64,000 nt of DNA from Thermoproteota archaeon (GCA_029258885.1 JAPDJW010000002.1:128001-192000); one strand, 5' to 3'. Numbered from the stretch's first letter, positions 5,678-64,000 are shown. The notes: generated by a model from the sequence alone, not told the origin. A program made the numbers and translations.

Positions 5678-5956
5678 TGGTGGCATGGCGTAAAGACGAT
5701 ATTTGTTATCGTTTTTGCCGCTTTATCTGCGGGAGGCCTAATATATGTGTGAATATCGAACAAACTATTCTGGTCGATTTCTAGAATAGCGCTACTAGTC
5801 TCGCTGGAAGGACACGGAAGAACAACGCCTGTAAACAGAGCCATAATGGTAGATGTACATACAGTGTCTTCAATACTTACGGTAGCTCTAGCCATAATCC
5901 ACATATACTTAAACTGGAACTGCATAGCAAGCTACGTTAAAATGGCCTTAAATTAA
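5678..5956 (+). pseudogene. DUF4405-like two-His membrane protein remnant
   Basis: The + frame reads ...RAIMVDVHTVSSILTVALAIIHIYLNWNCIASYVKMALN*. It has an in-frame TGA at 5750-5752 and no clear start. Confidence 0.5.
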
Positions 5957-6231
5957 GATAAACCGAGCTTTACGAGAATATCCAAGGCTTTCTCAAGCTT
6001 ATCCAGCTCCTTTAAGCCCTTTTCAGTGATATAATACACCCTAGACTTACCCGTGTCCCTAGCTGATATAATCATGTTCTTCTCAAGGGACACTATAATA
6101 AGCTTAAGCCTATCATAGGGCATGTTAACGTACTCACAAAGTCTAGTAGCTGGCATCGGCCCTACCTGCTTCAACACCCTAAGTATCTCAACCAGTACCG
6201 AAAGCCTAGACCTATATCTCCTTCTCGGCAT
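5953..6231 (-). CDS. Winged helix-turn-helix transcriptional regulator (archaeal, RRxRSRL-type)
   Basis: MPRRRYRSRLSVLVEILRVL...TRLCEYVNMPYDRL...YYITEKG. The ATG at 6231 has a GGAGGA SD. Confidence 0.75.
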   Translation of the reverse strand: MPRRRYRSRLSVLVEILRVLKQVGPMPATRLCEYVNMPYDRLKLIIVSLEKNMIISARDTGKSRVYYITEKGLKELDKLEKALDILVKLGLS

Positions 6232-6819
6232 TTCCTCCAGCCTTAACAAACCATATACCACACATCAGAGTAATGAAGGCCACCGATCTAACGAAAGCCG
6301 AATAAAGGTATAGAATTGGACTTGGAACCACTAGCATTAGGTGGGAGAAAATAGGAGAAACGCCATATCAATGTATGTAAACGCCTTCCTCTTAACAGCC
6401 ATTACAAGCAGAAGTGCCAAGGCTGTAGCGGAGATTATTTCACATACTGTCCATAGGAGAGGCATATCCTTGCCAGCTAAAAACAGAGCTAACGAACCCA
6501 AAGAATACCTGCTATTTTCAGGCTTAAAATCAATGAAGTAGGCTACAGTTAGCAGTAGGTAGGACATCGGGTAAAGTACTATATGAGGCGAATAAAGGAG
6601 TGCGGAAATTATCCAGTGGAACCTAGCTGAATGATACGATCCTGTAAAATATCCATATGCTCCAAATCCTAAAACCATGGTCTCGATGCCCAATGCCAGA
6701 GAAAGTATGGCTAGTGAAAGCGAGAGAATATACACCTTTTTCTCTCTGGCATATCCGCCTATTCTAAGTAACCTATAGATCGTGAGGATAAGTAGCGCTA
6801 TAGATATAAAGTTAAGCAC
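6212..6819 (-). pseudogene. Multi-pass membrane protein interrupted by a 1-nt frameshift near 6344-6351 (or a sequencing error)
   Basis: The hydrophobic ORF 6337-6819 stops at LFSPT*. Another frame continues HLMLVVPSPILYLYSAFVRSVAFITLMCGIWFVKAGGNAEKEEI* to 6212, overlapping the next start. Confidence 0.55.
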
Positions 6820-6939
6820 TAGAGAGACTGCTATGACGTAGCCGTGTAGACCTCTATGCCACTCTGAAGCACCTATCCCACTTTTTCAACACTTCATAAT
6901 AGTACTTCTGGAGATAAAAGTTCGATTATTGAGAGCAGA

Positions 6940-6995
6940 GCATCAGGCGCGAGAAGATTCGTCACCGCTCAGCTTACCGTCGTTTCATCCTCCAC
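6940..6995 (-). ncRNA. Box C/D methylation-guide sRNA
   Basis: The minus strand reads AGGATGA (C box) - AACGACGGTAAG (12 nt) - CTGA (D') - GC - GGTGA (C') - CGAATCTTCTCGCGC - CTGA (D). It is intergenic, with TTTAAT about 25 nt upstream. Confidence 0.7.
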
Positions 6996-7275
6996 TATAT
7001 AACTTCAAGGACCCTATTAAATCTTTGCTTCAAAAAATAGAACTAGTACATAGACTTTTACTAAAGTAAAGGATCACAGCAAGAACTTTAAGTTCAAGCC
7101 ACAATAATAGCATCACCAGTGATTATATAGCTAAAAAATATTTTATGAAAAGGGTTTATCAGTATGCAAATATCTAATTCTAACATTTTATAATTAAAAA
7201 ATCTTAGAAAAAGTTGCTAAATCAATAAAAATTCATAGAAACGCTTATAATAAAAGTGATGTTTCGTATATTCTC

Positions 7276-8538
7276 ATGCAGGTCGCAGCATTAAAACAGT
7301 TGGTTATTGGAATATTGATTGGCATAGTAATTGGATCGGGAGTTCTCTACGGGTTAGCATCAGCAGAGATAATATCGATAACGCCGTCAGGCGTAGTAAA
7401 GAAGTTACCGAAGGAAATACCCATAGGTGTTCTACTCCCCCTGCAGGGCCCACTATCCACGTACGGTAATAAATGGAAGTATGCTGTCCAAATGGCATTC
7501 GAAGACGTCAATAACTACGTAAAACTCCTCGGATACGATATAACATTCAAGCCGCTCATAGAGGATACTCAAGTAAACCCAGAGCTGGCATTAACCGCCG
7601 TAAAGAACCTCTACTCTAAGGGCGTTAAGGTAATAATAGGTCCAGCCGCAAGCTCAGAGGTAAAGGCGATAGCCTCAACGGTTAACTCGTATAAGATAGT
7701 CGTAATATCGCCGTCCTCGACAGCACCAGATCTAGCTATACCAAACGACTTCATATTCAGGCTAGTAATCATAGATGCAATACAGGGACGTGCAATAGCG
7801 AAGCTAATTCTGAAGCATAACATAACGAAGGTCGTGGTCCTCTACAGGAAGGACGACTGGGGACAAGGATTATTCGATGCATTTAAAGAAAACTTTGAAT
7901 CCCTAGGGGGAACTGTTGTCGGCATACCGTTTGATCCAAAGGCTGAGGAGTTCTCTGCTGAAGTCAGGCAGGCCGCCGATGCACTACAGAATATGGGTAC
8001 AGAAGGATCAGGCGTGCTATTGATATCGTTTGAGGATGATGGGGTAAGCGTATTGAACACCGCAAAGGATATAGAGATACTAGGGCAGGTTATGTGGTTC
8101 GGATGCGATGGCACGGCTTTCTCAGGCAAGATACCGAGCCAGGTGGGGGACTTCGTAATAAGGGTTGGGGGACTACCGAGCACAATATTTTATCCGCAGA
8201 AATCAGTTAAAACCGATGAGTTTAGGCAGAGATATCTGAACGAGGTAGGGGAGGAGATAGATTCCTACGGCCTCAACATATACGACTGCGTATGGGTTGC
8301 TGCACTAAGCATACTTGAAGCAGGAGAATACGATGGAGAAGTCATAAAGAATGTATTGCCGGAGGTCGCATCGAGGTACTTTGGAGTAAGCGGATGGACG
8401 TTGCTCGATGAGGCAGGCGATAGAATTGGAGGCGGAGACTATATAATAGTGAAAATTGTACAGGAGGGCAGCGGTCTAAAGTGGATTGAAGCTGGAACGT
8501 ACATTATAGCTAAGGATATAATCGAATTTAGGGAGTAG
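7276..8538 (+). CDS. livK: Branched-chain amino acid-type ABC transporter substrate-binding protein with N-terminal TM anchor
   Basis: IPIGVLLPLQG, VKVIIGPAASSE and ISPSSTAP. Heads a LIV operon. Confidence 0.85.
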   Translation: MQVAALKQLVIGILIGIVIGSGVLYGLASAEIISITPSGVVKKLPKEIPIGVLLPLQGPLSTYGNKWKYAVQMAFEDVNNYVKLLGYDITFKPLIEDTQVNPELALTAVKNLYSKGVKVIIGPAASSEVKAIASTVNSYKIVVISPSSTAPDLAIPNDFIFRLVIIDAIQGRAIAKLILKHNITKVVVLYRKDDWGQGLFDAFKENFESLGGTVVGIPFDPKAEEFSAEVRQAADALQNMGTEGSGVLLISFEDDGVSVLNTAKDIEILGQVMWFGCDGTAFSGKIPSQVGDFVIRVGGLPSTIFYPQKSVKTDEFRQRYLNEVGEEIDSYGLNIYDCVWVAALSILEAGEYDGEVIKNVLPEVASRYFGVSGWTLLDEAGDRIGGGDYIIVKIVQEGSGLKWIEAGTYIIAKDIIEFRE

Positions 8539-8634
8539 AAATCTTAATATATAACCTCTCTTTTTTATCTAAAAAATCATTACCATCAATAATAATATAT
8601 TGAATAAAAAATTACTAATAGTAATAGTGATCGT

Positions 8635-9399
8635 ATGGAGCCTGAATACATAATATACGCAGAGAACGTGTACAAGAGCTTTGGTGGAGTAGTTGCATTA
8701 AGGAATGTTTCACTAGGATTGAGGCCGAGAACTATAACGATGATAATAGGTCCAAATGGAAGTGGAAAAACCACACTAATAAATGTGATATCCGGTGTAT
8801 ATAGGCCGGATCGAGGAAGGATATTCTTCGATGGAACGGATATTACGGGATGGCCTCCTCACAGAATCTTCAGCAGGGGATTAGCTAGAACATTCCAGGT
8901 ACCAGCACTCTTCACAAAGCTTACAGTTCTCGAAAATATGCTTGTAGTAGCTAGGGGTAATCCCGGCGAAAGCTTGTTCAAGGCAATTTTCAGAGGAAGT
9001 TGGATTAAGTATGAGGAGGAGCTAGTGGAGAAGGCGTTCAGAATCCTCGATATTCTTAATCTAAGTGATCTGTGGGATAAGAGGGCGCGTGAGCTAAGCG
9101 GAGGACAAATGAAGCTCTTGGAGATAGGTAGGACGTTAATGTGCGATCCAACGGCGATCTTAATGGATGAGCCGCTCGCCGGCGTTAATCCAAGCTTAGC
9201 ATACAATATACTCGAGTACCTGAGGAACATTAGGGATAGGGAGAACGTATCCTTCCTTGTAATAGAGCATAGGCTGGACATAATTTTGCCCTATATTGAC
9301 TATGTCTATTTCATGGTTGGGGGAAGGGTCTTTGCTCAAGGCAGACCTGAGGAGGTTATGGAGAATAAGGCTGTGCTAGAGGCCTACTTGGGTGAGTAG
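8635..9399 (+). CDS. livG: LIV-type ABC transporter ATP-binding protein
   Basis: GPNGSGKT, RTFQ, LSGGQ and LMDEPLAG. Confidence 0.9.
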   Translation: MEPEYIIYAENVYKSFGGVVALRNVSLGLRPRTITMIIGPNGSGKTTLINVISGVYRPDRGRIFFDGTDITGWPPHRIFSRGLARTFQVPALFTKLTVLENMLVVARGNPGESLFKAIFRGSWIKYEEELVEKAFRILDILNLSDLWDKRARELSGGQMKLLEIGRTLMCDPTAILMDEPLAGVNPSLAYNILEYLRNIRDRENVSFLVIEHRLDIILPYIDYVYFMVGGRVFAQGRPEEVMENKAVLEAYLGE

Positions 9400-10135
9400 T
9401 ATGGTGTTGCTTAAAGTTGAGAATTTAAACTCCGGATATAATGGTCTCCAAGTACTGTATAGCGTGAACATAGAAGTTGAAGAGAACGAGATAGTAGCGG
9501 TTATAGGTCCGAATGGAAGCGGAAAATCCACACTATTGAAATCGCTCTTCGGCCTAGTAACGATCTACAGCGGCAGGATACTCTTTGAAGATAGGGATAT
9601 AACTAGGCTAAAGCCCCATGAGAGAGCTAGGCTGGGCCTAGTATACCTGCCGCAGGTTGGAAGTACGTTTGAGAAGCTTACGGTTAGGGAAAATATAGCT
9701 ATGGCTAGCTTTCTTCTTAATCCCTCTATTAGAAGGAAGAGGATTGAAAACGCCCTAGAAATATTCCCCATCGTAAGGAAGTTCATGGATAGAAAGGTCT
9801 ATACTCTAAGCGGTGGAGAAAGGCAGATGGTTGCAATAACAATGGCGCTAATACGCAACCCCAAGCTGATAATGTTCGATGAACCGACGGCGAGCCTAGC
9901 TCCAAAGATAGCTAGAGAAATAATAGATAAGATAGTTCTACTCAGGAGGGAGCATGGGCTATCCATAATACTAGTGGAGCAGAACACTAGGCTTGCGCTG
10001 GAGGTCAGCGATAGAGCATACATACTTGTTACGGGCAGGTGCATATATCATGGCGAATCACGTGAGCTACTAAACGATAGGGATCTAGGAAAACTTTACT
10101 TGGGGTTGGCGCACCGTGAAGATGGATTCAGCTAG
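9392..10135 (+). CDS. livF: LIV-type ABC transporter ATP-binding protein
   Basis: GPNGSGKS, LSGGERQM, FDEPTASLAP and LVEQN. Confidence 0.9.
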   Translation: MSSMVLLKVENLNSGYNGLQVLYSVNIEVEENEIVAVIGPNGSGKSTLLKSLFGLVTIYSGRILFEDRDITRLKPHERARLGLVYLPQVGSTFEKLTVRENIAMASFLLNPSIRRKRIENALEIFPIVRKFMDRKVYTLSGGERQMVAITMALIRNPKLIMFDEPTASLAPKIAREIIDKIVLLRREHGLSIILVEQNTRLALEVSDRAYILVTGRCIYHGESRELLNDRDLGKLYLGLAHREDGFS

Positions 10136-11111
10136 CTTAACTCCGCTTATATTCCTTATGACATTGATAACAATACTTATCCTATTTACTCCTCCCGACC
10201 TCCTCCTGAATTCTCTCACGTTCAGCAATATAATTTCAATGCTGACTGTAGGGCTCGTGCTCACGTATCTAACGTTAAAAGTACCTAACTTCGCTCACGG
10301 AGATTTGGCAAGCATAGGTTTCTACGTATCGTATGCATTGTACAGGGCATATGGATTAAACCCCTATTTCTCGATACCAGTATCTTTCCTGGTCTCTGGG
10401 GCTGTTGCGCTGATGATATATAAGGCGGTGTATAGGGTACTGCAGAGGAGGAGGGCGGATATGGTCAACTTAATGGTGGCTTCAATAGCAGTTGACATAA
10501 TAATTCGAACAATCCTCTACATATATTCGGATGCAATGAGGGAATACACTAGGACGTTCTATAGGGGCTTTATATTTCACGACGTAACATTTAGGGTAGG
10601 ATGTTATAGCGTATCGTTCGTGGCTATAGCCTCGACGATAGCCTCCGTATCGATGGTGCTTGCCCTCTACTATCTACTCATGAAGACCAAAACAGGAATA
10701 GCGATGAGGGCCGCTATAGAGAATCCAGATCTAGCGGAAACCCTCGGGATAGATATAGATAAAATGTACTCGTTATCTTGGTTCATCGCAGGGGGAATAG
10801 CCGGAGCCGCTGGAGTATTCATACCCTTCAGAATGGCTTCATATCCCGACACTGGCTGGAATCTGCTGTTGAGGATGTTCTCAGCGGCTGTGCTTGGAGG
10901 CCTAGATAACATATTCGGCGCAATAGTGGGAGGATACATGGTCGGCCTCATCGAGGTCCTTGGGATATACTACCTTTCGAAGCCCCCAATTTACCTTTCA
11001 TCGGCCTATAGACCAGCTATTCCCTACGTAATTTTATTCTCAGTTCTTCTGTTTGCTCCGAAGGGTGTATTAAACCTAGTACTGGGCAGGAGGTGTGGGA
11101 AACATGATTGA
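10116..11111 (+). CDS. livH: LIV-type ABC transporter permease
   Basis: NFAHG, TKTGIAMRAAIENPDLAETLGI and VLGGL. Confidence 0.88.
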   Translation: MKMDSASLTPLIFLMTLITILILFTPPDLLLNSLTFSNIISMLTVGLVLTYLTLKVPNFAHGDLASIGFYVSYALYRAYGLNPYFSIPVSFLVSGAVALMIYKAVYRVLQRRRADMVNLMVASIAVDIIIRTILYIYSDAMREYTRTFYRGFIFHDVTFRVGCYSVSFVAIASTIASVSMVLALYYLLMKTKTGIAMRAAIENPDLAETLGIDIDKMYSLSWFIAGGIAGAAGVFIPFRMASYPDTGWNLLLRMFSAAVLGGLDNIFGAIVGGYMVGLIEVLGIYYLSKPPIYLSSAYRPAIPYVILFSVLLFAPKGVLNLVLGRRCGKHD

Positions 11112-12135
11112 TATCTTCGTACTAATCCTAGATTTCCTAGCCTTCTTTTCGATATACCTTATACTCTCGATAAGCTTAAACCTAGAGTACGGATACACGG
11201 GAATACCGAACTTCGGTAAGGTTCTCTTCTTCGCAGGAGGAGCGTTTACAGTAGGTGCATTAGCTTCCAGAATAATAGCTCCACTGGTAGGAGTGAACCT
11301 AGCTGAAATAGACTTCGTAAAGTACAATGCCTTTCTAGGCATAAAGGTAACGAACTTCTTCGCAGAAAACCCCCACATAGCACTGCTAATGTTTATAGCA
11401 TTACTCGCGTTAGCAATGATGGTGGGCGCCATTTTGGGATATCTAGCTTCCTATCCAGCAATTAGATTAAGAGAAGACTATCTTGGAATGGTCCTAGTAG
11501 TCTCAGGAGAATTAGCTAGAATAATAGGCAAAAACTATGATCCATTAATATGCGGCACCTTCGGCGTATTCGTCCCAGATCCATTCTCGTGGGCTGGAAG
11601 ACTCCAATCGATAGTAAGAGTTGCAGTAATGCTGGCAATAGCCTACCTAGCTTTCCTAACCGTAGAGAAGCTGTCCAGATCCCCCTACGGTAGAGTGCTA
11701 AGAGCCATTAGGGATAACGAAGTGGCTGCAGACGCCTACGGGAAGAATATCGTTAAGGTGAGAATGCAGGTACTTGTCATAGGGTCTGCGCTCGCGGGGC
11801 TGGCGGGAGCGCTATACGCCTTCTATATGGGGACAGTTCATCCAGATGACTACTCTCCTCTCAAAACTTTTGTTATATGGATAATGGTAATAATGGGAGG
11901 CAGGGGGAACAATACTGGGGCAGCGGTGGGAGCATTAATATATCTGCTCGTAAACAGGACTATATCCTTCATTAAGCACTGGCTATATGCTCCATTCGAC
12001 GTCAACTACTTAAGCTACCTAATCTTCGGCGCCATAATAATCCTGATACTGATATACAAGCCGCAGGGGCTAATCCCCGAGAAACCTAGCGAAACGCTAG
12101 ACTTTAGGAAATACTTGAAGAAAACTAAATCCTAA
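11095..12135 (+). CDS. livM: LIV-type ABC transporter permease
   Basis: SLNLEYGYTGIPNFG, RLREDYL, SPYGRVLRAIRDNEVAA and KPQGLIPE. Confidence 0.88.
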   Translation: MGNMIDIFVLILDFLAFFSIYLILSISLNLEYGYTGIPNFGKVLFFAGGAFTVGALASRIIAPLVGVNLAEIDFVKYNAFLGIKVTNFFAENPHIALLMFIALLALAMMVGAILGYLASYPAIRLREDYLGMVLVVSGELARIIGKNYDPLICGTFGVFVPDPFSWAGRLQSIVRVAVMLAIAYLAFLTVEKLSRSPYGRVLRAIRDNEVAADAYGKNIVKVRMQVLVIGSALAGLAGALYAFYMGTVHPDDYSPLKTFVIWIMVIMGGRGNNTGAAVGALIYLLVNRTISFIKHWLYAPFDVNYLSYLIFGAIIILILIYKPQGLIPEKPSETLDFRKYLKKTKS

Positions 12136-14749
12136 CTCCGTATTTGCGGATAAACTCTAAGCTCTCTATTAACGTATCCTCTGTTATCGACGGCTTAATT
12201 CTTGATACGATTGCAGCGATATCCTTCATGGTGACCTTAACATCCTCTCCCTTAATCTTCCTCCTAATTACGGCCATCTTTGCTTCCTTACATATGGCAA
12301 CTATATCGGCGCCAGAGTATCCTCGGGTAAGTTCAGCGAGTTTCTTAAAGTCTACGTCTTCAGCTAACGGTAGCCCCTCGAGGTGTTTCCTGAATAATTT
12401 CTCCCTAGCCTCAGTGCCCGGCGGCGGAACGTATATCAGCTTATCGAAACGCCCAGGCCTTAGGAGGGCCGGATCCAGAGCAAGCGGCCTATTGGTAGCC
12501 GCTAGAACAACTACGTTCCTCTTATCAACTATTCCATCCATTTCATAGAGTAGTTGGGCTACAACCCGCCTATAGACCTCGTCATCCGTTAGATCCCTCC
12601 TAGGGGCTATAGCATCTATTTCATCGAGGAATATCACAGACGGCGAGTTTTCATACGCTCTATTAAATGCATCCTTAAGCTCCTTCACGGCATCCCTCCC
12701 AGATATATCGCTGCATCTAACCTCGATGAAGGGAACTTTCAGCTTTTCAGCCGCAACCCTAGCTAACAGGGTCTTCCCGCATCCAGGTGGACCAAATAAA
12801 AGTATTCCCCTAACAACATTACTAATACCGTATTTTTCAAGTAACTCCGGATACTTCAGCGGTATCTTAATGGATTCAATAAGTATTTTCTTAGCTTCAT
12901 CGAGACCGATCACGTCGTGCCAGCTGAGTTTAGCCTGCTTTCTAGGCTTAAACCTCCTCCTCTCGTATTCAAGCTTAAACCTCTCGTACTCCCTCATCAT
13001 CTCCAACGTTATGCTGGGCTTATAGCGCCGAATAACCTTAATGAAGTCAGACATACACACCGGCCTTTCTTTCCCATATTCGAGGGCATACCTCACAGCC
13101 TCCCTAGCAGCCTCCTGGCAAACTATGGCTATGTCGGCACCAGAAAACCTCTCAGTGAGTTCGGCAAGTCTATCGAAGTCGACGTCTCCAGCAATAGGCA
13201 TGTTTCTAGTATGAATTCTAAATATCTCAGCCCTAGCCTCCTTATCAGGCGGTGGAACGTATATCAGCTTATCGAAACGCCCAGGCCTTATTAAAGCTTT
13301 ATCGAGAACCTGAGGCATATTAGTGGCACCAACAATGAGTATTCCATCGCTACTCTCAAGTCCATCGAGCTCAGCCAACATTATGCTTAAAAGCCTCGGG
13401 GAAACGTCGTCGGTCGAGTAGGAATCCCTACTCCTACCGAGTGCTTCAAGTTCATCGAAGAATAAAATACAGGGAGCTTCGTTTCTAGCCTTTCTAAATA
13501 TCTCAGCCATCTTATGCTCGCTCTCGCCGTACCATTTACTTAAAATATCGCTACACTTAACGTAGAAGAACTTAAAGTTTAGGTGTGTGGCTAGAGCTTT
13601 CATCAGCAGTGTCTTGCCGCATCCAGGAGGACCGAAGAGGAGTATGCCTTTAGGCGGCTTCAATCCATATTTTCTAGCTACCTTTCTATTCCTCAGAGGC
13701 CACACGATTGTTTCGATAATCTCCCTTTTAACGTCATCCAGCCCCCCGATATCGTTGAACGTAATCTTATTCTTTCTTGAAGGCTTATAGCTCCTAATGC
13801 CAAGCCTATCTAGGGACGCCACAACCTCAGCCTTAGACGTTAACTGTAAAGCCTCGCTAACAATCGATAGCCTACTGAAGGTGAGTGAGAGGGATGCTGA
13901 AGTAATAAGGAAGGGAACGTAGAAATCCGGATCCGGGAAGTAGCCGAACGCCATCCTACTTATAAGTAGATACGTTGAAATAATTATTCCCGAAGCAATC
14001 AATCCAGCGAAAAGTCCACTAAGCCATGAGTTAAGCCTACGTGCAATGTAGGACACCATATAGCATGTAAGCATTATAGTCATAATCTGAATTGAGACAA
14101 TGCATCCCCTACCAGCTAGAAAAACGAGCGTATCACCTATAATTCCAAACGAGGACAGCAGCTCAGCCATGCCTACATTGGGGATAGCCTTACTAAGGTC
14201 GTCAAGCGATGCAATCGGGGGCTTAAAACCCCCCACTATAGGAGTACCCGATGGGAGCACTATCATGGAAATAACCTGATAGCTTCCAAAGCTACTCCTA
14301 GTCCACAGGCCTATGAAAGTGGCTCCCAAGCCGTACATCATTCCTAGGAATAGCGCGGAGAGCGGCTGTACCATAGTTGAGCCTGCCACTATTAAAGCTA
14401 TTGAAAGCATATCCAGGTGAGGGTATAGGAGGGCCAGAGAGAGGGACACATAGAGTATTAGTACGCCGATCCAATTTCTTATGAACGCTAGGGAGGCAAG
14501 CGCAAATAACGCATAGCATATTCCCAACGTAACGTCCTGATACAGAGCAGCGGGGACGCCTATAAGCGCCACAAAAGCTGTAGCGGCCATGGGGCTCTTA
14601 ATCGATAGCAGTATCGATAAAATAATGAGTATTACGGATACGAAGCTCGGGTAGAAGGGTATTGCATTAAACAGTAGATGCTCCAGTATTACTAGGGCAA
14701 GTATCCTAAACATGTATGAAGCTATGGTCCTAACTAGATCGATCCTCAT
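12125..14749 (-). CDS. Cdc48-like double AAA+ ATPase with a large multi-pass N-terminal membrane domain
   Basis: Two Walker A motifs (GPPGCGKT), Walker B motifs FFDE and FLDE, and two RPGRFD regions. The first ~310 aa are strongly hydrophobic. The likely start is MRIDLVR at 14749 (the track gives 14809). Confidence 0.85.
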   Translation of the reverse strand: MRIDLVRTIASYMFRILALVILEHLLFNAIPFYPSFVSVILIILSILLSIKSPMAATAFVALIGVPAALYQDVTLGICYALFALASLAFIRNWIGVLILYVSLSLALLYPHLDMLSIALIVAGSTMVQPLSALFLGMMYGLGATFIGLWTRSSFGSYQVISMIVLPSGTPIVGGFKPPIASLDDLSKAIPNVGMAELLSSFGIIGDTLVFLAGRGCIVSIQIMTIMLTCYMVSYIARRLNSWLSGLFAGLIASGIIISTYLLISRMAFGYFPDPDFYVPFLITSASLSLTFSRLSIVSEALQLTSKAEVVASLDRLGIRSYKPSRKNKITFNDIGGLDDVKREIIETIVWPLRNRKVARKYGLKPPKGILLFGPPGCGKTLLMKALATHLNFKFFYVKCSDILSKWYGESEHKMAEIFRKARNEAPCILFFDELEALGRSRDSYSTDDVSPRLLSIMLAELDGLESSDGILIVGATNMPQVLDKALIRPGRFDKLIYVPPPDKEARAEIFRIHTRNMPIAGDVDFDRLAELTERFSGADIAIVCQEAAREAVRYALEYGKERPVCMSDFIKVIRRYKPSITLEMMREYERFKLEYERRRFKPRKQAKLSWHDVIGLDEAKKILIESIKIPLKYPELLEKYGISNVVRGILLFGPPGCGKTLLARVAAEKLKVPFIEVRCSDISGRDAVKELKDAFNRAYENSPSVIFLDEIDAIAPRRDLTDDEVYRRVVAQLLYEMDGIVDKRNVVVLAATNRPLALDPALLRPGRFDKLIYVPPPGTEAREKLFRKHLEGLPLAEDVDFKKLAELTRGYSGADIVAICKEAKMAVIRRKIKGEDVKVTMKDIAAIVSRIKPSITEDTLIESLEFIRKYGVRI

Positions 14750-59606: not shown

Positions 59607-61193
59607 ATGAGAAAGTACCTGCCACTGCTGGTAAGCCTGCTTTTCTTAATACTAACGTTAAATGCTGGGCTAAACGCATCTCCTCATCAATGGTGGCCCA
59701 TGTTTCAAAGGGATGCTGTAAACAGTGGATGGATGGACGTAGATGCTCCTGAGACTCCTCAAATATTCTGGGTAGTTTCCCTGCCTGAAAAACCTGGCGT
59801 AAGAGTTCAGCCTGTAACCTTCGAGAATAAGACCATAATAACCACTAGAGATACTGGCAAAGTGATATGTTTTGACACGATAACAGGAGAGAAGCTATGG
59901 ATGAACAGCCTAGGGGTATATATCCATTACTCGTCACCAATAATATATAACGGTAAAGTTATAGTCTGCGGCTACGGTAAAGTTGCAGCCTTTGATCTAG
60001 AAACGGGAGATAAACTCTGGGAATACACGCCTCCCGACGGCAAGAGAATAAGGGCCGAGCCTACATTACACCAGGGCATCCTGTTCCTACCAGTGGGCCA
60101 CTACAAAGATAGTCCACCCTTCTACATAGTCGCTCTTGATCCAGATACTGGAACCGAAATAAACGTATTTACTGATCCAAATCTTCCGCCACCCTCCGAT
60201 AGCGGAATAGTTGGATACGGAGATCTAATAATATTTGGAACACGCTATAAATCTGGGTTTGTACAGAAGCTATATGCTCTAAGAGTAAGTGACCTAAGCA
60301 TAGAATGGGTTTTAGAGGTAGGATCCAGCATCAGTCCTCCAACGGTGGCTGATGGAATAGTATATGTAGGTCTATATAACAGCACGATACTTGCTGTTGA
60401 TGCATCCACCGGATCAGTTTTATGGAAGCTTGTAGTTGGCTCAGGAAACAGGTTCTACAGGATAGCTCCGGTATATAAGGATGGTGTACTATACGTCGCT
60501 GCCTACAATACCGGTCTCGTAGCTGCAATAGATACGTCAACTCAAACCGTCATATGGACATACGATGCACCAAGCTACATATATAGTCAATTAATATATG
60601 CAGACGGCAAGATATACTTTGGATGTGATGATGACTACCTCCGGTGCCTAGATGCATCCAATGGAAACATTATATGGGAGTATAAGGCTGGAGACGATTG
60701 GCAGTCAGTATCCATAGTCGACATCGGCGGCTATGGAATAATTATAGCTGCATCAAACGACTATAACCTATACGCATTCGGCTCAATACCCATGTTTGTA
60801 ACGCTAGAAATAGAGGTTCTAGATGAGAACGGTAATCCACTGCCAAATGCCCACGTACAACTATTCACAAGAGACTGGTCTCTAGCAAGGGAGGGAGATA
60901 CGGGAGGCGATGGTAAGATAACGTTCTTCAACGTACAAGCTCAAGACTACATCATAAAGGTCACGTACGATGATAGGGTAACGTATTCAGGCGTGAGAAA
61001 GACAGATCTAATGGGATACCTTGGAGGAACATTCCACATAACCGTAAGGTTCCCATTGCCTGTTGGAGGAGAGGCTATTCCAGTAGATAAAATAGGACTT
61101 ATTCTATATACCGTTACAGTGAATCTCCACTATATCATATTAGCGCTGCTAGCTATAGCGGCAACCCTCATGTATAGGAGGAGTAAAACCTAA
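59607..61193 (+). CDS. Surface PQQ-like beta-propeller protein with Ig-like domain and PVGG-type anchor
   Basis: WPMFQRDAVNSG, repeated A.D..TG..LW motifs and LPVGGEAIPVDK-TM-RRSKT. Confidence 0.85.
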   Translation: MRKYLPLLVSLLFLILTLNAGLNASPHQWWPMFQRDAVNSGWMDVDAPETPQIFWVVSLPEKPGVRVQPVTFENKTIITTRDTGKVICFDTITGEKLWMNSLGVYIHYSSPIIYNGKVIVCGYGKVAAFDLETGDKLWEYTPPDGKRIRAEPTLHQGILFLPVGHYKDSPPFYIVALDPDTGTEINVFTDPNLPPPSDSGIVGYGDLIIFGTRYKSGFVQKLYALRVSDLSIEWVLEVGSSISPPTVADGIVYVGLYNSTILAVDASTGSVLWKLVVGSGNRFYRIAPVYKDGVLYVAAYNTGLVAAIDTSTQTVIWTYDAPSYIYSQLIYADGKIYFGCDDDYLRCLDASNGNIIWEYKAGDDWQSVSIVDIGGYGIIIAASNDYNLYAFGSIPMFVTLEIEVLDENGNPLPNAHVQLFTRDWSLAREGDTGGDGKITFFNVQAQDYIIKVTYDDRVTYSGVRKTDLMGYLGGTFHITVRFPLPVGGEAIPVDKIGLILYTVTVNLHYIILALLAIAATLMYRRSKT

Positions 61194-61201: not shown

Positions 61202-62257
61202 TTATTCGTTATTTTCAGGTCTAATAATTATATCCCATATCAAGGGATCCTCTTGCCCCACTCTCCATACAGCTATTTTATCTAATCCGAAGGCTTTAAT
61301 TAACCTAGCCCTAACCTCAAAGCTCTTAGCCACCTGAAACCACACTTCATGCTCTAAACCTCCGCTACTATACCTAAAGTATGCTTCCCCACTAGCATTA
61401 TCGAAGCGTACTTTAGCGCCGTAGGCGCCCGCTAGGCTTATCGCATCATAGTATGTGACCGCGCTACCCCTCCCGCCCTTAGGCCAGTCGTAGCCGTAGA
61501 GAGGCACGCCAATTATAAGCTTTTCTCTAGGAACGTATTTCAGCATATTTCTAATAACGTCTTCAAGCCAATATAGGGGGGCTATTGGTCCTGGGCCGCT
61601 GCCGGAGTAGTGGTAGCTGTAGGCCATTACTATAAGATAGTCGTTATATTCTGCTAAAGCCTTATGGTCATATACGTAGGATAGTCCGACAGCTTGTGTA
61701 ACTATTTTGCCATGGCTATGCAATTTCTCATATAGAAGCCTCATAAACTCCGTTAAATACCCCCTATCACTGTATGGTATGTTCTCAAAATCTATATTAA
61801 TACCGTCGTACCCCCGCTTCAAAACCTCCTTAACTATGCTATCTACAGCCTTCTTCCTAACTTCAGGGTTAGTAAGTATCCGGTGTATAGTATCCCTATC
61901 AAATTCCCAATTAGCCACTAGAGGGATTAGCTTCACTCCCCAGCTCCTACACTTCTCTATAAAATCCCGGCTAACGCCTCTATCGATCAAATAACCGCCG
62001 CCAGTTATATAGTACCATGTTGGAGATACCCAGGTAAACTTATCGTGGTGTGCATAGAATGCTTCGATGCTCGAGCTTGACAGCGTAACCCAGCCGAACA
62101 GCTTTACCTCCACTTTAGTTAAATTTTTATTCAATGCCTCTATCTCGCTTAGATAGGCCTTACCGTACCTTTCTCTTCTCCACCGCATAACAGAGTATGC
62201 CATTAATAATGCTACAGATATTGAAATGGCTACAAATACAATCGTTTTCTTTTCCAT
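61202..62257 (-). CDS. GH18 glycoside hydrolase, SleL/YaaH/YdhD-like, with N-terminal membrane anchor
   Basis: VSPTWY, GYDGINIDFE, VMAYSYH...PGPIAP, KLIIGVPLYGYDW, HEVWF and IAVWRVGQED. Confidence 0.88.
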   Translation of the reverse strand: MEKKTIVFVAISISVALLMAYSVMRWRRERYGKAYLSEIEALNKNLTKVEVKLFGWVTLSSSSIEAFYAHHDKFTWVSPTWYYITGGGYLIDRGVSRDFIEKCRSWGVKLIPLVANWEFDRDTIHRILTNPEVRKKAVDSIVKEVLKRGYDGINIDFENIPYSDRGYLTEFMRLLYEKLHSHGKIVTQAVGLSYVYDHKALAEYNDYLIVMAYSYHYSGSGPGPIAPLYWLEDVIRNMLKYVPREKLIIGVPLYGYDWPKGGRGSAVTYYDAISLAGAYGAKVRFDNASGEAYFRYSSGGLEHEVWFQVAKSFEVRARLIKAFGLDKIAVWRVGQEDPLIWDIIIRPENNE

Positions 62258-62372
62258 AAGCTAACACCCGAAATTAGCACCTTCCACCTCCTATGGATTC
62301 GGCTGCTACTCTAGGTCTCTATATTTAGCATTGGTGCAAAAATTAATTTTTCTTTCATACATTTTAGTGAAC

Positions 62373-63773
62373 ATGACATCCCTAAGGCTTATAATATTAA
62401 TGGCGCTAATTATCCAGCTTCTAGCGGGTATAGCTTCCCCCTCTCTATCTTCCCCTCAAATCAATAGGCCGAGGATTATATCTAGAGAGGAATGGGGGGC
62501 TAGGCCTCCTAAATGCAACTATAGGGCTAACCCATACTATAATGCAATAACGATACATCACACAGCAACATCCAACGACTATACCGATGGAGCTGCTGTA
62601 GTGAGGAGTATTCAAAAATACCATATGGACGTTAGAGGATGGTGCGATATAGGATATCACTTTCTAATAGATAAATACGGGAATATCTATGAGGGTAGAC
62701 CCATCTGGGCGGTTGGAGCTCATGTTAAGGGACATAATACGGGCAATATTGGAGTAGCTGTTATAGGCAATTTTGAGGAAGCGGTTCCGAATAGTGAGAT
62801 ATTAGACGCTCTAGCAGAGCTGGTAACCTGGCTAGTATATGAATACGGCATACCTATAGAGAATATTAAGGGACATAGGGATTATGCAGCTACAAGCTGT
62901 CCTGGACGTTATCTATATGAAAAATTGTCTTGGCTTAGAAATGAGGTTAAACGTAGGCTTGAAAGTGCTTCCGAGGAATACTATGATGTTAGGGTTAAAA
63001 TATTAAATGATTTAGGCGAGCCTCTTCACGGAGCTATAGTTGAGCTGGACGGATTAACCGATGAAACTGATATTTGGGGAGAGGTATACTTTAGGGATAT
63101 TAAGGGAGGTAGCTACACGATCAACGTGTATTGGGATGATATAAAAGTTTACGGTAAGTCTTGCAAGATATCGAGCAATTGTATGCTTACATTTAAGGTG
63201 CCAGTTATACATTTAAATTTCACAGCCATTACTGAATCTGGCGTTCTTTTAAATAACTATATTTTGGAAATTAGTGGCATAAAAAACTTGACGATTAACG
63301 TAACCAAAGGATATTATGTTCTAAAAAATGTTCCAGCTGGAAAATTCCATGTGAAGATATACTTCCTAAATAGGCTAGTCTATAATAAAAGCATGAGTAT
63401 GTATACGTCTTCCAAAGTAGCGCTGAGGTGTAGGGTTCATATGCTTAAGGTATACTTGAAGGGAGAGGACGGCAAGAACATTAATCAGGCTAAAGTTATA
63501 GTTCTAGAGGAGAATAAAGAGCTATCTACCTATAATGTGTCTGGAGGCTATGCTCTAATCCTTTTACCCGAGGGTAGTTATACGTTAAGAATAGAGAGTG
63601 ATGAGTATACGCCGCTAACAGCTAAAGTTAACGTATCAAGCGATACAGTAGTTCAGCTAGCATTAGAGCCAGGCGAACCTGATGATCCATTCTCCTCGCT
63701 AACCACATTGCTGACCCTAATTATTTTAGCTATACTTCTAGGATTAGCTGGAAAAAAGGTTTTCTCCCACTAA
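62373..63773 (+). CDS. N-acetylmuramoyl-L-alanine amidase (Amidase_2/PGRP type) with Ig-like stalk and C-terminal TM
   Basis: ISREEWGA, ITIHHTA, GWCDIGYHFLI, IYEGR, GAHVKGHNT, GNFE and GHRDYAATSCPG. Confidence 0.92.
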   Translation: MTSLRLIILMALIIQLLAGIASPSLSSPQINRPRIISREEWGARPPKCNYRANPYYNAITIHHTATSNDYTDGAAVVRSIQKYHMDVRGWCDIGYHFLIDKYGNIYEGRPIWAVGAHVKGHNTGNIGVAVIGNFEEAVPNSEILDALAELVTWLVYEYGIPIENIKGHRDYAATSCPGRYLYEKLSWLRNEVKRRLESASEEYYDVRVKILNDLGEPLHGAIVELDGLTDETDIWGEVYFRDIKGGSYTINVYWDDIKVYGKSCKISSNCMLTFKVPVIHLNFTAITESGVLLNNYILEISGIKNLTINVTKGYYVLKNVPAGKFHVKIYFLNRLVYNKSMSMYTSSKVALRCRVHMLKVYLKGEDGKNINQAKVIVLEENKELSTYNVSGGYALILLPEGSYTLRIESDEYTPLTAKVNVSSDTVVQLALEPGEPDDPFSSLTTLLTLIILAILLGLAGKKVFSH

Positions 63774-64000
63774 TTTACATAACCTAATCTTATTCACTAT
63801 TCCCTGTATATTATTGGTTCCCCGAACTTCCATCACTAATGGCTTGTTATAGTTAACTTTTTCGAAGCTCTCTATAACCTCTCTCCATTCGATTCTACCC
63901 ATTAAAGGTGGATTGTGTAAATCTCTTATACCATAATTATCATGTATATGAGTTGCTATAAGATATTTCTTTGTAGTCTCTATAAATGTTGAAATATCAA
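63744..64000 (-). CDS. C-terminal part of a sugar phosphate isomerase/epimerase (xylose-isomerase-like TIM barrel); runs off the right edge
   Basis: Manual translation gives ...ATHIHDNYGIRDLHNPPLMGRIEWREVIESFEKVNYNKPLVMEV...*. Confidence 0.75.
   Translation of the reverse strand, partial: DISTFIETTKKYLIATHIHDNYGIRDLHNPPLMGRIEWREVIESFEKVNYNKPLVMEVRGTNNIQGIVNKIRLCKLVGENLFSS

What the first reader, a model, noticed from the sequence alone, without database searches (positions are those of the whole stretch)
61202..63773. Divergent pair of membrane-tethered peptidoglycan-hydrolase-like enzymes in an archaeon
Seen: an Amidase_2/PGRP domain with the Zn/catalytic set intact (HHT His, GYHF Tyr, GHRD His, SCPG Cys) on an Ig-like stalk with a C-terminal TM. 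Head-to-head with it is an N-anchored GH18 with DGINIDFE and motifs of spore cortex-lytic SleL/YaaH enzymes. Known: archaea lack peptidoglycan, the amidase cuts the MurNAc-L-Ala bond, and SleL-type GH18s release GlcNAc from peptidoglycan fragments. Archaeal peptidoglycan hydrolases have been reported in general. Inference: a surface-retained two-enzyme kit for digesting bacterial walls, spores or necromass. Tethering points to contact-dependent feeding or attack rather than a diffusible toxin.
Basis: partly seen in the sequence, partly recalled or inferred. Interest (0 to 1): 0.75.

Follow-up and report, generated by a model that had tools for sequence, protein, structure and literature searches.

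The report
Archaeal surface enzymes for bacterial cell wall
A heat-loving archaeon that builds no bacterial-type wall carries two membrane-anchored enzymes for cutting bacterial cell wall at the head of a full set of genes for importing and breaking down the pieces, so it most likely salvages wall debris from neighbouring bacteria rather than using the enzymes as a weapon.

Summary
Window 61202-62257(-) encodes a 351-aa N-anchored GH18 of the SleL/YaaH/YdhD type. Window 62373-63773(+) encodes a 466-aa PGRP/T7-lysozyme-type Amidase_2 with intact Zn and catalytic residues, a beta-sandwich stalk and a C-terminal TM. The host is a Thermoproteota archaeon (probably Thermofilales-like), and I found no sign of contamination.

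The pair opens a ~35-kb island. My own scans found AnmK, a GHL10 (Cwp19-type lytic transglycosylase family), a C39-like peptidase, OPT transporters, LysA, NagZ, a sugar kinase, MurQ, NamZ and a PBP4B-like protein. The genome has no Mur ligase, no PBP and no DapB/DapF.

A second, unrelated amidase sits near a second GH18 on contig C5.

Across 301 Thermoproteota genomes, this GH18 clade and Amidase_2 co-occur strongly with NamZ. Physical adjacency of the two genes, however, is limited to this genus.

In relatives the same amidase domain is fused to GHL10.

C-terminal tethering is this genome's default way of displaying surface proteins, so it says little about contact-dependent attack. I read the system as scavenging of wall fragments.

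The scan had already flagged this island from overlapping and adjacent DNA of the same genome, not from other genomes.

The parts
61202..62257 (-). GH18 glycosidase, 351 aa, SleL/YaaH/YdhD-like; probable endo-beta-N-acetylglucosaminidase acting on peptidoglycan glycan fragments
   Evidence: PF00704 at 4.8e-23. PDB sequence hits to YdhD, YaaH and SleL. AF2 pLDDT 93.9, top fold match SleL 4S3J. Belongs to a Thermoproteota clade of about 22 clusters.
62186..62242 (-). N-terminal transmembrane anchor of the GH18 (residues 6-24)
   Evidence: Hydropathy 2.43. All 22 clade members have one N-terminal TM, and most have the more basic flank on the N side, which favours N-in/C-out. The window's own copy is ambiguous at +2/+3. 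The AF2 model has a helix at 3-30.
61784..61807 (-). GH18 catalytic motif DGINIDFE (residues 151-158; D156 and E158)
   Evidence: Read directly from the sequence. G152, D156 and E158 are invariant in alignment A2.
62258..62372 (.). 115-bp divergent intergenic region holding AT-rich boxes (TATATTTA at 62321-62328; AAAAATTAATTTTT at 62339-62352, about 27 nt upstream of ATG 62373)
   Evidence: Sequence read. Assigning these boxes as archaeal TATA elements, and the amidase mRNA as leaderless, is inference only.
62373..63773 (+). Amidase_2 (PGRP/T7-lysozyme type) N-acetylmuramoyl-L-alanine amidase, 466 aa (480 aa if read from TTG 62331)
   Evidence: PF01510 at 2.7e-21. PDB hits to PGRPs at 7e-29 and T7 lysozyme at 1e-15. 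466 aa in the cluster representative and in the relative's gene call.
62373..62441 (+). Signal peptide (residues 1-23 or so)
   Evidence: Hydrophobic segment at 3-21 followed by AGIASP. AF2 helix at 2-18, then a low-confidence linker. No signal-peptide predictor was available.
62463..62972 (+). Catalytic amidase domain (residues 31-200): Zn ligands H62, H168, C176; Y95; T174; G89-W90
   Evidence: Invariant or nearly invariant columns in A1. Residue-by-residue alignment to PGRPs. pLDDT 84-97 except for one loop.
62979..63665 (+). Beta-sandwich (CarboxypepD_reg/Ig-like) stalk, residues 203-431
   Evidence: PF13620 at 5e-11 on residues 377-444 of the 480-aa form. AF2 shows all-beta modules at 203-275 and 355-431 with pLDDT 81-92. 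The 279-354 segment is low confidence.
63687..63761 (+). C-terminal transmembrane anchor (residues 439-463) followed by the basic tail KKVFSH
   Evidence: Hydropathy 2.34. AF2 helix at 439-463.
59607..61193 (+). Neighbouring surface protein: signal peptide, PQQ-type beta-propeller, CarboxypepD_reg domain, C-terminal TM. Tail-to-tail with the GH18. Its role is unknown.
   Evidence: PF13360 at 1.5e-30. Kept next to the GH18 in the 96%-identical relative. A 606-aa paralog lies inside the island.
63744..64000 (-). 3' part of an AP_endonuc_2 (xylose-isomerase-like TIM barrel) gene. It is the first of the downstream island genes that run beyond the window's end. The next gene is AnmK at G000:C1:192585-193790.
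   Evidence: PF01261 at 4.2e-30 on the full ORF. AnmK: PF03702 at 1.7e-97, NF007148 486 bits against a cut-off of 387.

Best explanation
The two genes encode the outward-facing first steps of a peptidoglycan salvage pathway in a wall-less, S-layer-type Thermoproteota archaeon.

Proposed mechanism:
1. The amidase, held on a stalk of two or three beta-sandwich domains, removes stem peptides from MurNAc.
2. The GH18, held close to the membrane by an N-terminal anchor, cuts GlcNAc-beta-1,4-MurNAc bonds in the stripped glycan, as SleL does. This releases MurNAc-GlcNAc.
3. A separately encoded GHL10 enzyme of the Cwp19 lytic-transglycosylase family would give GlcNAc-anhydroMurNAc.
4. Fragments and peptides are imported. 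OPT-type and other membrane proteins are encoded alongside, but the importer is not identified.
5. In the cytoplasm, NamZ and NagZ split the disaccharides. AnmK and a BadF-type kinase make MurNAc-6-P and GlcNAc-6-P. MurQ converts MurNAc-6-P to GlcNAc-6-P plus D-lactate. LysA turns scavenged meso-DAP into lysine.

What is shown: domain identities, catalytic residues, predicted topology, gene content, absence of murein synthesis, and co-occurrence.

What is inferred: every enzyme activity, bond specificity and substrate source, the import route, and the fate of GlcNAc-6-P.

Context, tested here:
- AnmK passes two NCBIfam equivalog cut-offs.
- MurQ: TIGR00274 scores 336 against 302. NagZ: NF003740 scores 209 against 207. 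LysA: TIGR01048 scores 456 against 298. The beta-lactamase-fold protein best matches PBP4B.
- NamZ_N and NamZ_C, GHL10, Peptidase_C39_2 and OPT were found by Pfam.

No wall of its own, and no other source of DAP:
- No Mur_ligase_M and no PBP transpeptidase in a 99.9%-complete genome.
- No DapB and no DapF, so LysA has no endogenous substrate.

Predicted location:
- The amidases, GH18_C5, GHL10 and C39 have a signal peptide plus a C-terminal TM.
- NagZ, NamZ, AnmK, MurQ, the kinase, LysA and PBP4B have no convincing signal peptide or TM; two weak hydrophobic segments sit just above the scan threshold.

Repeated coupling of an amidase with a glycan-cutting enzyme:
- By divergent promoter here.
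- By a co-directional cluster on C5, using an unrelated AmpD-like amidase (21% identity) and a 37%-identical GH18.
- By gene fusion (Amidase_2-GHL10) in relatives.

Co-occurrence:
- Order, 41 genomes: all 8 GH18-positive and all 6 Amidase_2-positive genomes lie inside the 17 that carry MurQ or NamZ.
- Phylum sample, 301 genomes: 15 of 19 GH18-positive genomes carry NamZ, against 33 of 301 overall. 8 of 14 Amidase_2-positive genomes carry the GH18.

Literature:
- MurNAc-GlcNAc, the minimal substrate of NamZ, is produced by an amidase plus an endo-N-acetylglucosaminidase (PMC8054146).
- GHL10/Cwp19 yields 1,6-anhydroMurNAc (PMC6016235).
- SleL is an N-acetylglucosaminidase that cleaves small fragments (PMC10653849).
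Against: - No biochemical data exist for any of these proteins.
- The GH18 has no peptidoglycan-binding domain.
- Orthologs of the GH18 in other Thermoproteota stand alone among housekeeping genes.
- Amidase-GH18 adjacency is not conserved beyond the genus.
- The co-occurrence counts ignore shared ancestry. Only about four families carry all three genes.
- The window's own GH18 has an ambiguous charge balance around its TM (+2/+3), so an inward-facing domain is not excluded.
- Canonical NagA and NagB are absent, so the downstream fate of GlcNAc-6-P is unclear.
- No AmpG- or MurP-type importer was identified; I did not search for one specifically.
- GH18 enzymes also include chitinases and N-glycan endoglycosidases.
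Confidence: 0.68

Rival explanations
1. Antibacterial weapon or predation. The tethered hydrolases lyse living bacteria on contact, either for competition or to open prey cells. Catabolism of the wall is secondary.
For: - Archaeal peptidoglycan hydrolases can kill bacteria (PMC12352652).
- Both enzymes are probably outward-facing.
- The distribution is patchy, as for bacteriocin-like weapons.
Against: - Tethering is the default surface architecture here, found on about 48 proteins.
- The GH18 domain sits about 25 residues from the membrane, and the amidase stalk has only 2-3 small domains. Reaching an intact sacculus through the organism's own S-layer therefore looks unlikely; this point is inference.
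- There is no cell-wall-binding domain.
- The genes are chromosomal, compositionally ordinary, and embedded in a catabolic island. They are not on a plasmid and have no immunity or delivery system nearby.
- SleL-type enzymes act on fragments.
Confidence: 0.12
2. The GH18 is not a peptidoglycan enzyme. It is a chitinase or chitodextrinase, or an endo-beta-N-acetylglucosaminidase acting on the chitobiose core of N-glycans (the cell's own S-layer glycoproteins or foreign glycoproteins). Its position next to the amidase is coincidental or reflects shared GlcNAc use.
For: - GH18 is mostly a chitinase and ENGase family. The C5 paralog gives weak Pfam/NCBIfam hits to GH85, EndoS and EndoH.
- Orthologs in other lineages are unlinked to any peptidoglycan gene.
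- GH18 copies sit next to general peptidases (M28, M14) and transporters, which would also suit glycopeptide breakdown.
- 4 of 19 GH18-positive genomes in the phylum sample lack NamZ.
Against: - The nearest solved relatives by both sequence and fold are SleL, YaaH and YdhD, ahead of true chitinases.
- There is no chitin-binding module.
- An Amidase_2 lies beside or near a GH18 twice in this genome, with unrelated amidases.
- Presence of the GH18 is nested within genomes that carry the MurNAc-specific NamZ and MurQ genes.
Confidence: 0.17
3. Assembly artefact. The segment is bacterial contamination or a chimeric join in a metagenome bin.
For: - Every archaeal informational marker I located (16S, TFB, Cdc6, SRP54, EF2, L21e, eIF5A, Rpb4, Pus10) lies on C2, C3 or C8, not on C1.
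- C1 has one tRNA in 647 kb.
- Its tetranucleotide signature differs slightly from C2 and C3 (r about 0.96, against 0.99 between C2 and C3).
Against: - Completeness of 99.9% with 0.6% contamination is incompatible with 1.1 Mb of foreign DNA.
- The same gene order occurs in an independent assembly.
- C1 shares microsynteny with archaeal contigs that carry EF2, eIF5A and L21e, and 55 ORFs from relatives find their best match on C1.
- A 64%-identical GH18 ortholog is physically linked to archaeal ribosomal and translation genes.
- The closest relatives of both proteins are in Thermoprotei MAGs.
- The island is not a compositional outlier within C1.
Confidence: 0.02
4. The amidase is a non-catalytic PGRP-like sensor of bacterial neighbours, comparable to transmembrane PGRP-LC.
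For: The best solved relatives are animal PGRPs, and the protein is membrane-anchored.
Against: - The catalytic Cys, which non-catalytic PGRPs replace, is present and invariant, as are both His residues and the Tyr.
- The cytoplasmic tail is only about 6 residues long with no signalling domain.
Confidence: 0.02

Closest known systems
Catalytic PGRPs and phage T7 lysozyme (Amidase_2, PF01510), e.g. Drosophila PGRP-LB, amphioxus PGRP3 (4ZXM)
   Same: The fold family, the His-His-Cys zinc site with the same His-to-Cys spacing, the catalytic Tyr, and a Thr two residues before the Cys. The Gly-Trp pair is also shared; a secondary source associates it with DAP-type preference.
   Different: The host is an archaeon. 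The domain sits on a CarboxypepD_reg-type stalk with a C-terminal membrane anchor. In a tree, the catalytic domain groups with archaeal Amidase_2-GHL10 fusions and actinobacterial LGFP-repeat amidases, not with the bacterial amidases that carry similar stalk domains.
Bacillus SleL/YaaH and YdhD (GH18 spore-cortex fragment-lytic N-acetylglucosaminidases; 4S3J, 4S3K, 3CZ8)
   Same: They are the closest solved sequences and structures. The IDFE catalytic motif, the Tyr and the overall TIM barrel are shared.
   Different: Identity is only 24-32%. There are no LysM domains; an N-terminal membrane anchor takes their place. There is no sporulation context. The protein belongs to a separate Thermoproteota clade that also reaches Brockarchaeota-named MAGs.
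Bacillus subtilis peptidoglycan recycling / MurNAc catabolic operon (murQ-murR-murP-amiE-nagZ-namZ) and E. coli AnmK/MurQ recycling
   Same: NagZ, NamZ, MurQ and AnmK are present together with an amidase. The logic is the same: an amidase plus glycosidases yield mono- and disaccharides that become MurNAc-6-P and then GlcNAc-6-P.
   Different: The organism has no peptidoglycan of its own to recycle. NagZ and NamZ look cytoplasmic here, whereas the B. subtilis proteins carry natural signal sequences. The amidase is an Amidase_2, not AmiE. No PTS MurP or AmpG was identified. Canonical NagA and NagB are absent.
Modular archaeal peptidoglycan hydrolases of Strock et al. 2025 (PMC12352652)
   Same: Archaeal enzymes of bacterial origin that target peptidoglycan, with a patchy distribution.
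   Different: That survey required a recognised cell-wall-binding domain, which these proteins lack. Those enzymes are secreted and bactericidal. These are membrane-tethered and sit with a catabolic pathway. The paper's main text does not mention Amidase_2, GH18, Thermoproteota or AnmK.
Staphylococcus aureus Atl (bifunctional amidase plus endo-beta-N-acetylglucosaminidase) and C. difficile Cwp19 (GHL10 lytic transglycosylase)
   Same: Atl is described as a bifunctional amidase/endo-beta-N-acetylglucosaminidase (abstract); its glucosaminidase domain, used together with the separate amidase CwlC, yields MurNAc-GlcNAc. The fusion partner of the amidase in relatives belongs to the Cwp19 family.
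   Different: Here the two activities are separate, divergently transcribed genes. The glucosaminidase is a GH18, not a GH73. Whether the archaeal GHL10 has Cwp19's activity is untested.

Membership tests
Amidase_2 / PGRP-T7 lysozyme zinc amidases (PF01510) | Domain match above Pfam's gathering score | tested here: met
   76.7 bits against a cut-off of 26.
Amidase_2 / PGRP-T7 lysozyme zinc amidases (PF01510) | Zinc ligands His, His, Cys, with Cys eight residues after the second His | tested here: met
   H62, H168 and C176 are invariant in 31 sequences and align with PGRP residues.
Amidase_2 / PGRP-T7 lysozyme zinc amidases (PF01510) | Catalytic Tyr (T7 Tyr46 equivalent), and Thr or Lys two residues before the Cys | tested here: met
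   Y95 is invariant and T174 is conserved in at least 90% of sequences.
Amidase_2 / PGRP-T7 lysozyme zinc amidases (PF01510) | Hydrolysis of the MurNAc-L-Ala amide bond | not testable with these tools
   Needs an enzyme assay.
GH18, SleL/YaaH/YdhD subgroup | GH18 domain with the D-x-E catalytic pair and the conserved Tyr | tested here: met
   PF00704 scores 82.8 bits. D156, E158 and Y213 are invariant.
GH18, SleL/YaaH/YdhD subgroup | Closer to SleL, YaaH and YdhD than to chitinases | tested here: met
   Sequence: YdhD 9e-41 and SleL 1e-28, against at best 2e-9 for an entry characterised as a chitinase (8HW6); two unverified 'probable chitinase'/class V depositions (5JH8, 4Q6T) score higher. 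Fold: SleL ranks first at 5.7e-29.
GH18, SleL/YaaH/YdhD subgroup | N-terminal LysM peptidoglycan-binding domains | tested here: not met
   Pfam finds only GH18. The N-terminus is a single TM helix.
GH18, SleL/YaaH/YdhD subgroup | N-acetylglucosaminidase activity on peptidoglycan or cortex fragments | not testable with these tools
   Known for B. anthracis SleL (cited in PMC10653849). Untested for this protein.
Modular peptidoglycan hydrolases as defined by Strock et al. 2025 | [quoted passage not shown] | tested here: not met
   Catalytic domains are present, but neither protein has a binding domain. The definition is read.
Bacterial-type MurNAc catabolic / peptidoglycan recycling pathway | MurQ etherase, AnmK, NagZ and NamZ present | tested here: met
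   MurQ, AnmK and NagZ pass curated equivalog cut-offs. NamZ matches both Pfam domains at 2e-75 and 7e-57.
Bacterial-type MurNAc catabolic / peptidoglycan recycling pathway | The organism has its own murein to recycle | tested here: not met
   No Mur_ligase_M and no PBP transpeptidase in a 99.9%-complete genome.
Bacterial-type MurNAc catabolic / peptidoglycan recycling pathway | NagA and NagB to take GlcNAc-6-P to fructose-6-P | tested here: not met
   NagA TIGR00221 gives only 20 bits. PF01182 gives no match. A SIS-only protein matching the isomerase half of GlmS is present instead.
Bacterial-type MurNAc catabolic / peptidoglycan recycling pathway | Dedicated importer (AmpG permease or MurP PTS) | not tested
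   I did not search for these families. OPT and DUF6785/6784 membrane proteins and M28-FtsX fusions lie in the island.

The most novel reading that the evidence does not exclude
A whole group of Thermoproteota lineages (Thermofilales-like, plus families whose members are named Brockarchaeota or 'Nitrososphaerota' in public records) depends nutritionally on bacterial cell wall. They carry a complete surface-to-cytoplasm peptidoglycan dismantling pathway. In the order examined, they have also lost full-length GlmS, keeping only the isomerase-half protein, and they have LysA without any DAP pathway. Bacterial murein would then be a required source of amino sugars, and a source of lysine, not merely an optional one. 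That would be a cross-domain trophic dependency comparable to the MurNAc auxotrophy of Tannerella forsythia.
Probability: 0.15. Interest if true: 0.85.

Novelty: new variant of a known kind. Interest (0 to 1): 0.7.

Why it matters
Archaeal peptidoglycan hydrolases were recently shown to exist and to kill bacteria. The authors of that work left open whether such enzymes serve killing or scavenging (PMC12352652).

This locus bears directly on that question. The hydrolases are physically and phylogenetically tied to MurNAc-specific catabolic genes, in an organism that makes no murein and no DAP. The published survey would have missed them because they lack a wall-binding domain.

If the reading is right, a set of hot-spring and hydrothermal Thermoproteota feed on or salvage bacterial wall debris. 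That would:
- add an archaeal sink to the turnover of peptidoglycan, a major pool of recalcitrant organic nitrogen;
- give a concrete, testable molecular basis for archaeal dependence on bacterial neighbours;
- offer thermostable amidase and glucosaminidase candidates.

My full-text searches found no paper describing AnmK, MurQ or NamZ function in archaea. That library is incomplete.

Tried and rejected
- Rfam and tRNA scans of the window found nothing.
- The search for related loci with the single amidase protein returned only two loci. Family and alignment searches were needed instead.
- Positive-inside analysis of the GH18 anchor is ambiguous for the window's own copy. It is informative only across the clade.
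- Looking for archaeal marker genes on contig C1 failed: TFB, Cdc6 and six markers taken from L059 all map to C2, C3 or C8.
- A tRNA-synthetase-like gene beside the island has no match in five complete relatives, so it is not a usable housekeeping marker.
- C1's archaeal identity therefore rests on microsynteny, the best-hit distribution, the completeness and contamination figures, and an independent assembly.
- Canonical NagA and NagB were sought and not found.
- I considered amino-sugar auxotrophy from the loss of GlmS. I downgraded it because the SIS-only gene lies next to a GlmU-like gene and may work in the synthetic direction.
- I considered that the amidase's stalk came in together with its catalytic domain from bacterial CarboxypepD_reg-bearing amidases. 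The tree puts those in a different, well-supported clade.
- The stalk has no close paralog in the genome (at most 22% identity).
- Literature searches for archaeal AnmK, MurQ or NamZ, and for Thermofilum with an amidase, returned nothing relevant.
- I ran no complex prediction, because I do not claim the two proteins bind each other.


Full report
WHAT IS THERE

The window is G000:C1:128001-192000, part of a 647-kb contig. The genome is 2.10 Mb in 26 contigs, 99.9% complete and 0.6% contaminated, with an archaeal 16S on contig C3.

At 61202-62257(-) lies a 351-aa ORF. At 62331/62373-63773(+) lies a 480/466-aa ORF, head to head with it.

The first is a GH18:
- PF00704 scores 82.8 bits.
- It carries DGINIDFE at residues 151-158.
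- It has one N-terminal TM at residues 6-24.

The second is an Amidase_2:
- PF01510 scores 76.7 bits, with a CarboxypepD_reg match near the C-terminus.
- A hydrophobic C-terminal helix is followed by KKVFSH.

The probable start of the amidase is ATG 62373. It gives a regular signal peptide. It is the length used by the public gene calls, 466 aa. It also lies about 27 nt downstream of an AT-rich box. Reading that box as a promoter element is inference.

CATALYTIC INTEGRITY

The amidase's best solved relatives are animal PGRPs (4ZXM, 7e-29) and T7 lysozyme (1e-15).

In a 31-sequence alignment, H62, Y95, H168 and C176 are invariant and T174 nearly so. This is the catalytic PGRP pattern, including the Cys that non-catalytic PGRPs lose.

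G89-W90 occupies the two positions where human PGRP-I-alpha has Asn-Phe. A secondary source links Gly/Arg-Trp with DAP-type preference and warns that the selectivity is not absolute (PMC4655397).

The AF2 model (mean pLDDT 78) gives:
- a confident catalytic domain at residues 31-200;
- confident beta-sandwiches at 203-275 and 355-431;
- a poorly modelled beta-rich stretch at 279-354;
- a TM helix at 439-463.

The 'Ig-like stalk' is therefore supported for two modules and plausible for a third.

For the GH18, D156, E158, M211, Y213 and W331 are invariant in 27 sequences. The closest solved sequences are YdhD, 5JH8, 4WIW and YaaH/SleL. A pLDDT-93.9 model is closest in fold to B. cereus SleL. The barrel begins about 25 residues after the anchor helix.

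IS IT ARCHAEAL?

I could not place an archaeal informational marker on C1. The 16S, two TFB genes, two Cdc6 genes, SRP54, EF2, L21e, eIF5A, Rpb4 and Pus10 are all on C2, C3 or C8. C1 has a single tRNA. C1 and C4-C7 form a tetranucleotide group slightly apart from C2 and C3.

Against a binning error:
- The completeness and contamination figures leave no room for 1.1 Mb of foreign DNA.
- An independent assembly (GCA_053995735.1) has the same gene order around the pair.
- C1 shares adjacent gene pairs and triplets with archaeal contigs that carry EF2, eIF5A and L21e.
- ORFs from same-order genomes find 55 best matches on C1.
- A 64%-identical GH18 ortholog lies on one contig with archaeal translation genes.

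The GC content of the pair (0.43 and 0.40) is within the genome's range (0.403 +/- 0.039), and the island is not an outlier within C1. I put contamination at about 2%.

THE PAIR IS THE EDGE OF A LARGER ISLAND

Earlier notes of this scan claimed a pathway beyond the window's end. I tested that independently. Downstream on C1 I found:
- AnmK at 192585-193790; two equivalog cut-offs passed.
- An OPT-like membrane protein.
- Two M28-FtsX giant proteins.
- Two DUF6785/6784 membrane proteins.
- A GHL10 with a signal peptide and a C-terminal TM, at 203689-204882.
- An OPT transporter.
- A secreted Peptidase_C39_2.
- LysA (TIGR01048, 456 bits against 298).
- NagZ (NF003740, 209 against 207).
- A BadF/NagK-like kinase.
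- MurQ (TIGR00274, 336 against 302).
- NamZ, both domains.
- A PBP4B-like beta-lactamase-fold protein.

By hydropathy, the hydrolases that should meet polymer carry a signal peptide and an anchor. NagZ, NamZ, AnmK, MurQ, the kinase, LysA and PBP4B have no convincing signal peptide or TM.

The genome has no Mur ligase and no PBP transpeptidase. It therefore makes neither murein nor pseudomurein. It has no DapB or DapF, so the only conceivable substrate for LysA is imported meso-DAP, a compound specific to peptidoglycan.

HOW THE PAIR FITS MECHANISTICALLY

- NamZ's minimal natural substrate, MurNAc-GlcNAc, is prepared in vitro by digesting peptidoglycan with a MurNAc-L-Ala amidase plus an endo-N-acetylglucosaminidase (PMC8054146).
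- SleL is an N-acetylglucosaminidase that cleaves small fragments (PMC10653849).
- The one characterised GHL10, C. difficile Cwp19, is a lytic transglycosylase that produces 1,6-anhydroMurNAc ends (PMC6016235). That is the substrate class of AnmK.

This gives a coherent scheme. Amidase plus GH18 yield MurNAc-GlcNAc for NamZ. GHL10 yields GlcNAc-anhMurNAc for NagZ and AnmK. Both routes converge on MurQ. All activities are inferred from homology.

IS THE LINKAGE CONSERVED?

Physically, only within the genus. The 96%-identical relative keeps this order: M28-FtsX, 648-aa protein, URO-D, AnmK, AP_endonuc_2, amidase, then divergently GH18 and the PQQ protein.

In other same-order genomes, the GH18 orthologs are not near any island gene. 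In more distant Thermoproteota, they sit among housekeeping genes. None of 80 GH18-clade loci from GTDB species (5 archaeal, 75 bacterial) has an Amidase_2 within 10 kb.

Functional coupling nevertheless recurs in three forms:
1. This divergent pair.
2. A co-directional GH18 / amino-acid permease / amidase cluster on C5. Its amidase is AmpD-like and only 21% identical to this one. Its GH18 is 37% identical and clearly extracellular.
3. A fusion. The nearest relatives of this amidase domain (55-68% identity) are 550-585-aa Thermoprotei proteins with Amidase_2 at the N-terminus and GHL10 at the C-terminus.

In a tree, the G000 domain groups with those fusions and with an actinobacterial LGFP-repeat group (SH-aLRT 95). 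It does not group with bacterial amidases that carry CarboxypepD_reg domains. G000 has a stand-alone GHL10 that is 42-45% identical to the fusion's C-terminal half. So the G000 architecture is a lineage-specific rearrangement.

GENOME-LEVEL CO-OCCURRENCE

In the order (41 genomes):
- MurQ or NamZ is present in 17.
- All 8 genomes with this GH18, all 6 with Amidase_2 and all 5 with a good AnmK match fall inside that set.
- Fisher p values are 2.5e-4, 2.8e-3 and 8.3e-3.

In an even sample of 301 Thermoproteota genomes:
- NamZ is in 33, the GH18 in 19 and Amidase_2 in 14.
- 15 of the 19 GH18 genomes have NamZ.
- 8 of the 14 Amidase_2 genomes have the GH18.

These p values ignore shared ancestry. 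All three genes co-occur in only about four families, so the true number of independent events is small.

Public records name the archaeal GH18 carriers as Thermoproteales, Thermoprotei, Brockarchaeota and 'Nitrososphaerota' MAGs. The nearest bacterial sequences (34-39% identity) are from Armatimonadota, Chloroflexota/Thermomicrobiales and Bacillota. This points to an old transfer from bacteria whose donor I cannot resolve.

TETHERING AND 'ATTACK'

A rough genome-wide scan finds 48 of 1492 ORFs of 150 aa or more with an N-terminal hydrophobic segment, one C-terminal TM and usually a basic tail. This is how the organism displays surface proteins in general. The tether therefore carries little information about contact-dependent attack.

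The GH18 barrel is almost flush with the membrane, and the amidase stalk is short. From general knowledge of S-layer-bounded Thermoproteota (not tested here), both would work in the space under the S-layer. There they would act on fragments small enough to enter, next to the transporters.

That fits SleL's preference for fragments, and it fits a scavenging role. Killing is not excluded.

PRIOR KNOWLEDGE

Strock et al. 2025 showed that about 5% of archaeal genomes encode modular peptidoglycan hydrolases and that two haloarchaeal enzymes kill a bacterium. They required a wall-binding domain, which the proteins here lack. They explicitly ask whether scavenging rather than killing is the main use.

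My searches found no paper on archaeal AnmK, MurQ or NamZ. The library is partial, so this is weak evidence of novelty.

The scan itself had already flagged this island from overlapping and adjacent windows of the same genome, and the C5 cluster as well. It had not flagged it from other genomes.

OPEN POINTS

- Canonical NagA and NagB are missing.
- G000 and 14 of the 15 MurQ-positive genomes in the order lack full-length GlmS. They have only a 345-399-aa protein matching its isomerase half. 19 of the 24 genomes lacking MurQ and NamZ have GlmS (p = 3e-6, not corrected for phylogeny).
- This could mean dependence on salvaged amino sugars. However, the G000 gene lies beside a GlmU-like gene and may simply replace GlmS.
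- The importer is unidentified.

VERDICT

It is wrong in emphasis: scavenging is better supported than attack, and the gene adjacency is lineage-specific. I rate it a new variant of a known kind.

Noticed in passing
G000:C2:87162-88223 (L061 8162-9223); order-wide: Full-length GlmS and the MurQ/NamZ pathway are almost mutually exclusive in the order. Only 1 of 17 pathway-positive genomes has GlmS, against 19 of 24 pathway-negative genomes. Pathway-positive genomes keep only a 345-399-aa protein that matches GlmS's isomerase half. In G000 this gene lies next to a GlmU-like gene.
   Followed up: partly
L043 3148-4722 (G006), L049 6283-7845 (G017), L047 9430-10929 (G023), L038 10001-11728: In relatives the same amidase domain is fused to a GHL10 (Cwp19-family, lytic-transglycosylase-like) domain in one 550-585-aa protein. 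G000 has the two as separate genes about 12 kb apart.
   Followed up: yes
G000:C1:216330-217562 (L037 6330-7562, minus strand): An equivalog-level LysA (DAP decarboxylase) in a genome with no DapB and no DapF. This is an orphan last step whose substrate would have to be scavenged meso-DAP.
   Followed up: partly
whole genome G000: Contigs fall into two tetranucleotide groups: C1 with C4-C7, and C2 with C3. All informational markers I located, and 23 of the 26 tRNAs found on the ten largest contigs, are on C2 and C3. The 647-kb C1 has one tRNA. Aragorn was run without intron search, so tRNA counts are lower bounds.
   Followed up: partly
G000:C1:417460-421183 (L008 7460-11183): A third GH18 paralog (366 aa, 53% identical) is co-directional with an EamA transporter and an M28 peptidase. 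This echoes the GH18 / permease / amidase layout on C5. In L059 the GH18 ortholog abuts an M14 carboxypeptidase.
   Followed up: partly
L051 (G013:C36) 3552-12469; L043 (G006:C13) 8720-13183; G000:C1:197037-215422: Giant M28-FtsX/MacB_PCD fusion proteins with OPT and DUF6785/6784 membrane proteins recur next to the amidase gene in several genomes. They are candidates for the missing fragment importer.
   Followed up: partly
window 59607-61193; L007 5122-6552: The PQQ-propeller surface protein and an unrelated 476-aa C5 surface protein both carry a short P-V/I-GGE motif with a Lys four to five residues after it (GGEAIPVDK; GGEAYLVNK), just before the C-terminal TM. The amidase and the GH18 lack it.
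   Followed up: no
G000 C1:287962-289908, C4:146380-148380, C5:120688-125397, C7:51090-53069, C12:18-2015: Several surface-anchored proteins end, after the TM and basic residues, in a run of 8-12 prolines on the predicted cytoplasmic side.
   Followed up: no
G000:C1:225528-228905 (L037 15528-18000): An anaerobic ribonucleotide reductase interrupted by an intein with a LAGLIDADG domain, just past the island.
   Followed up: no
L008 4591-5355: An AbiEii-type nucleotidyltransferase toxin gene lies about 2 kb from the third GH18 paralog.
   Followed up: no
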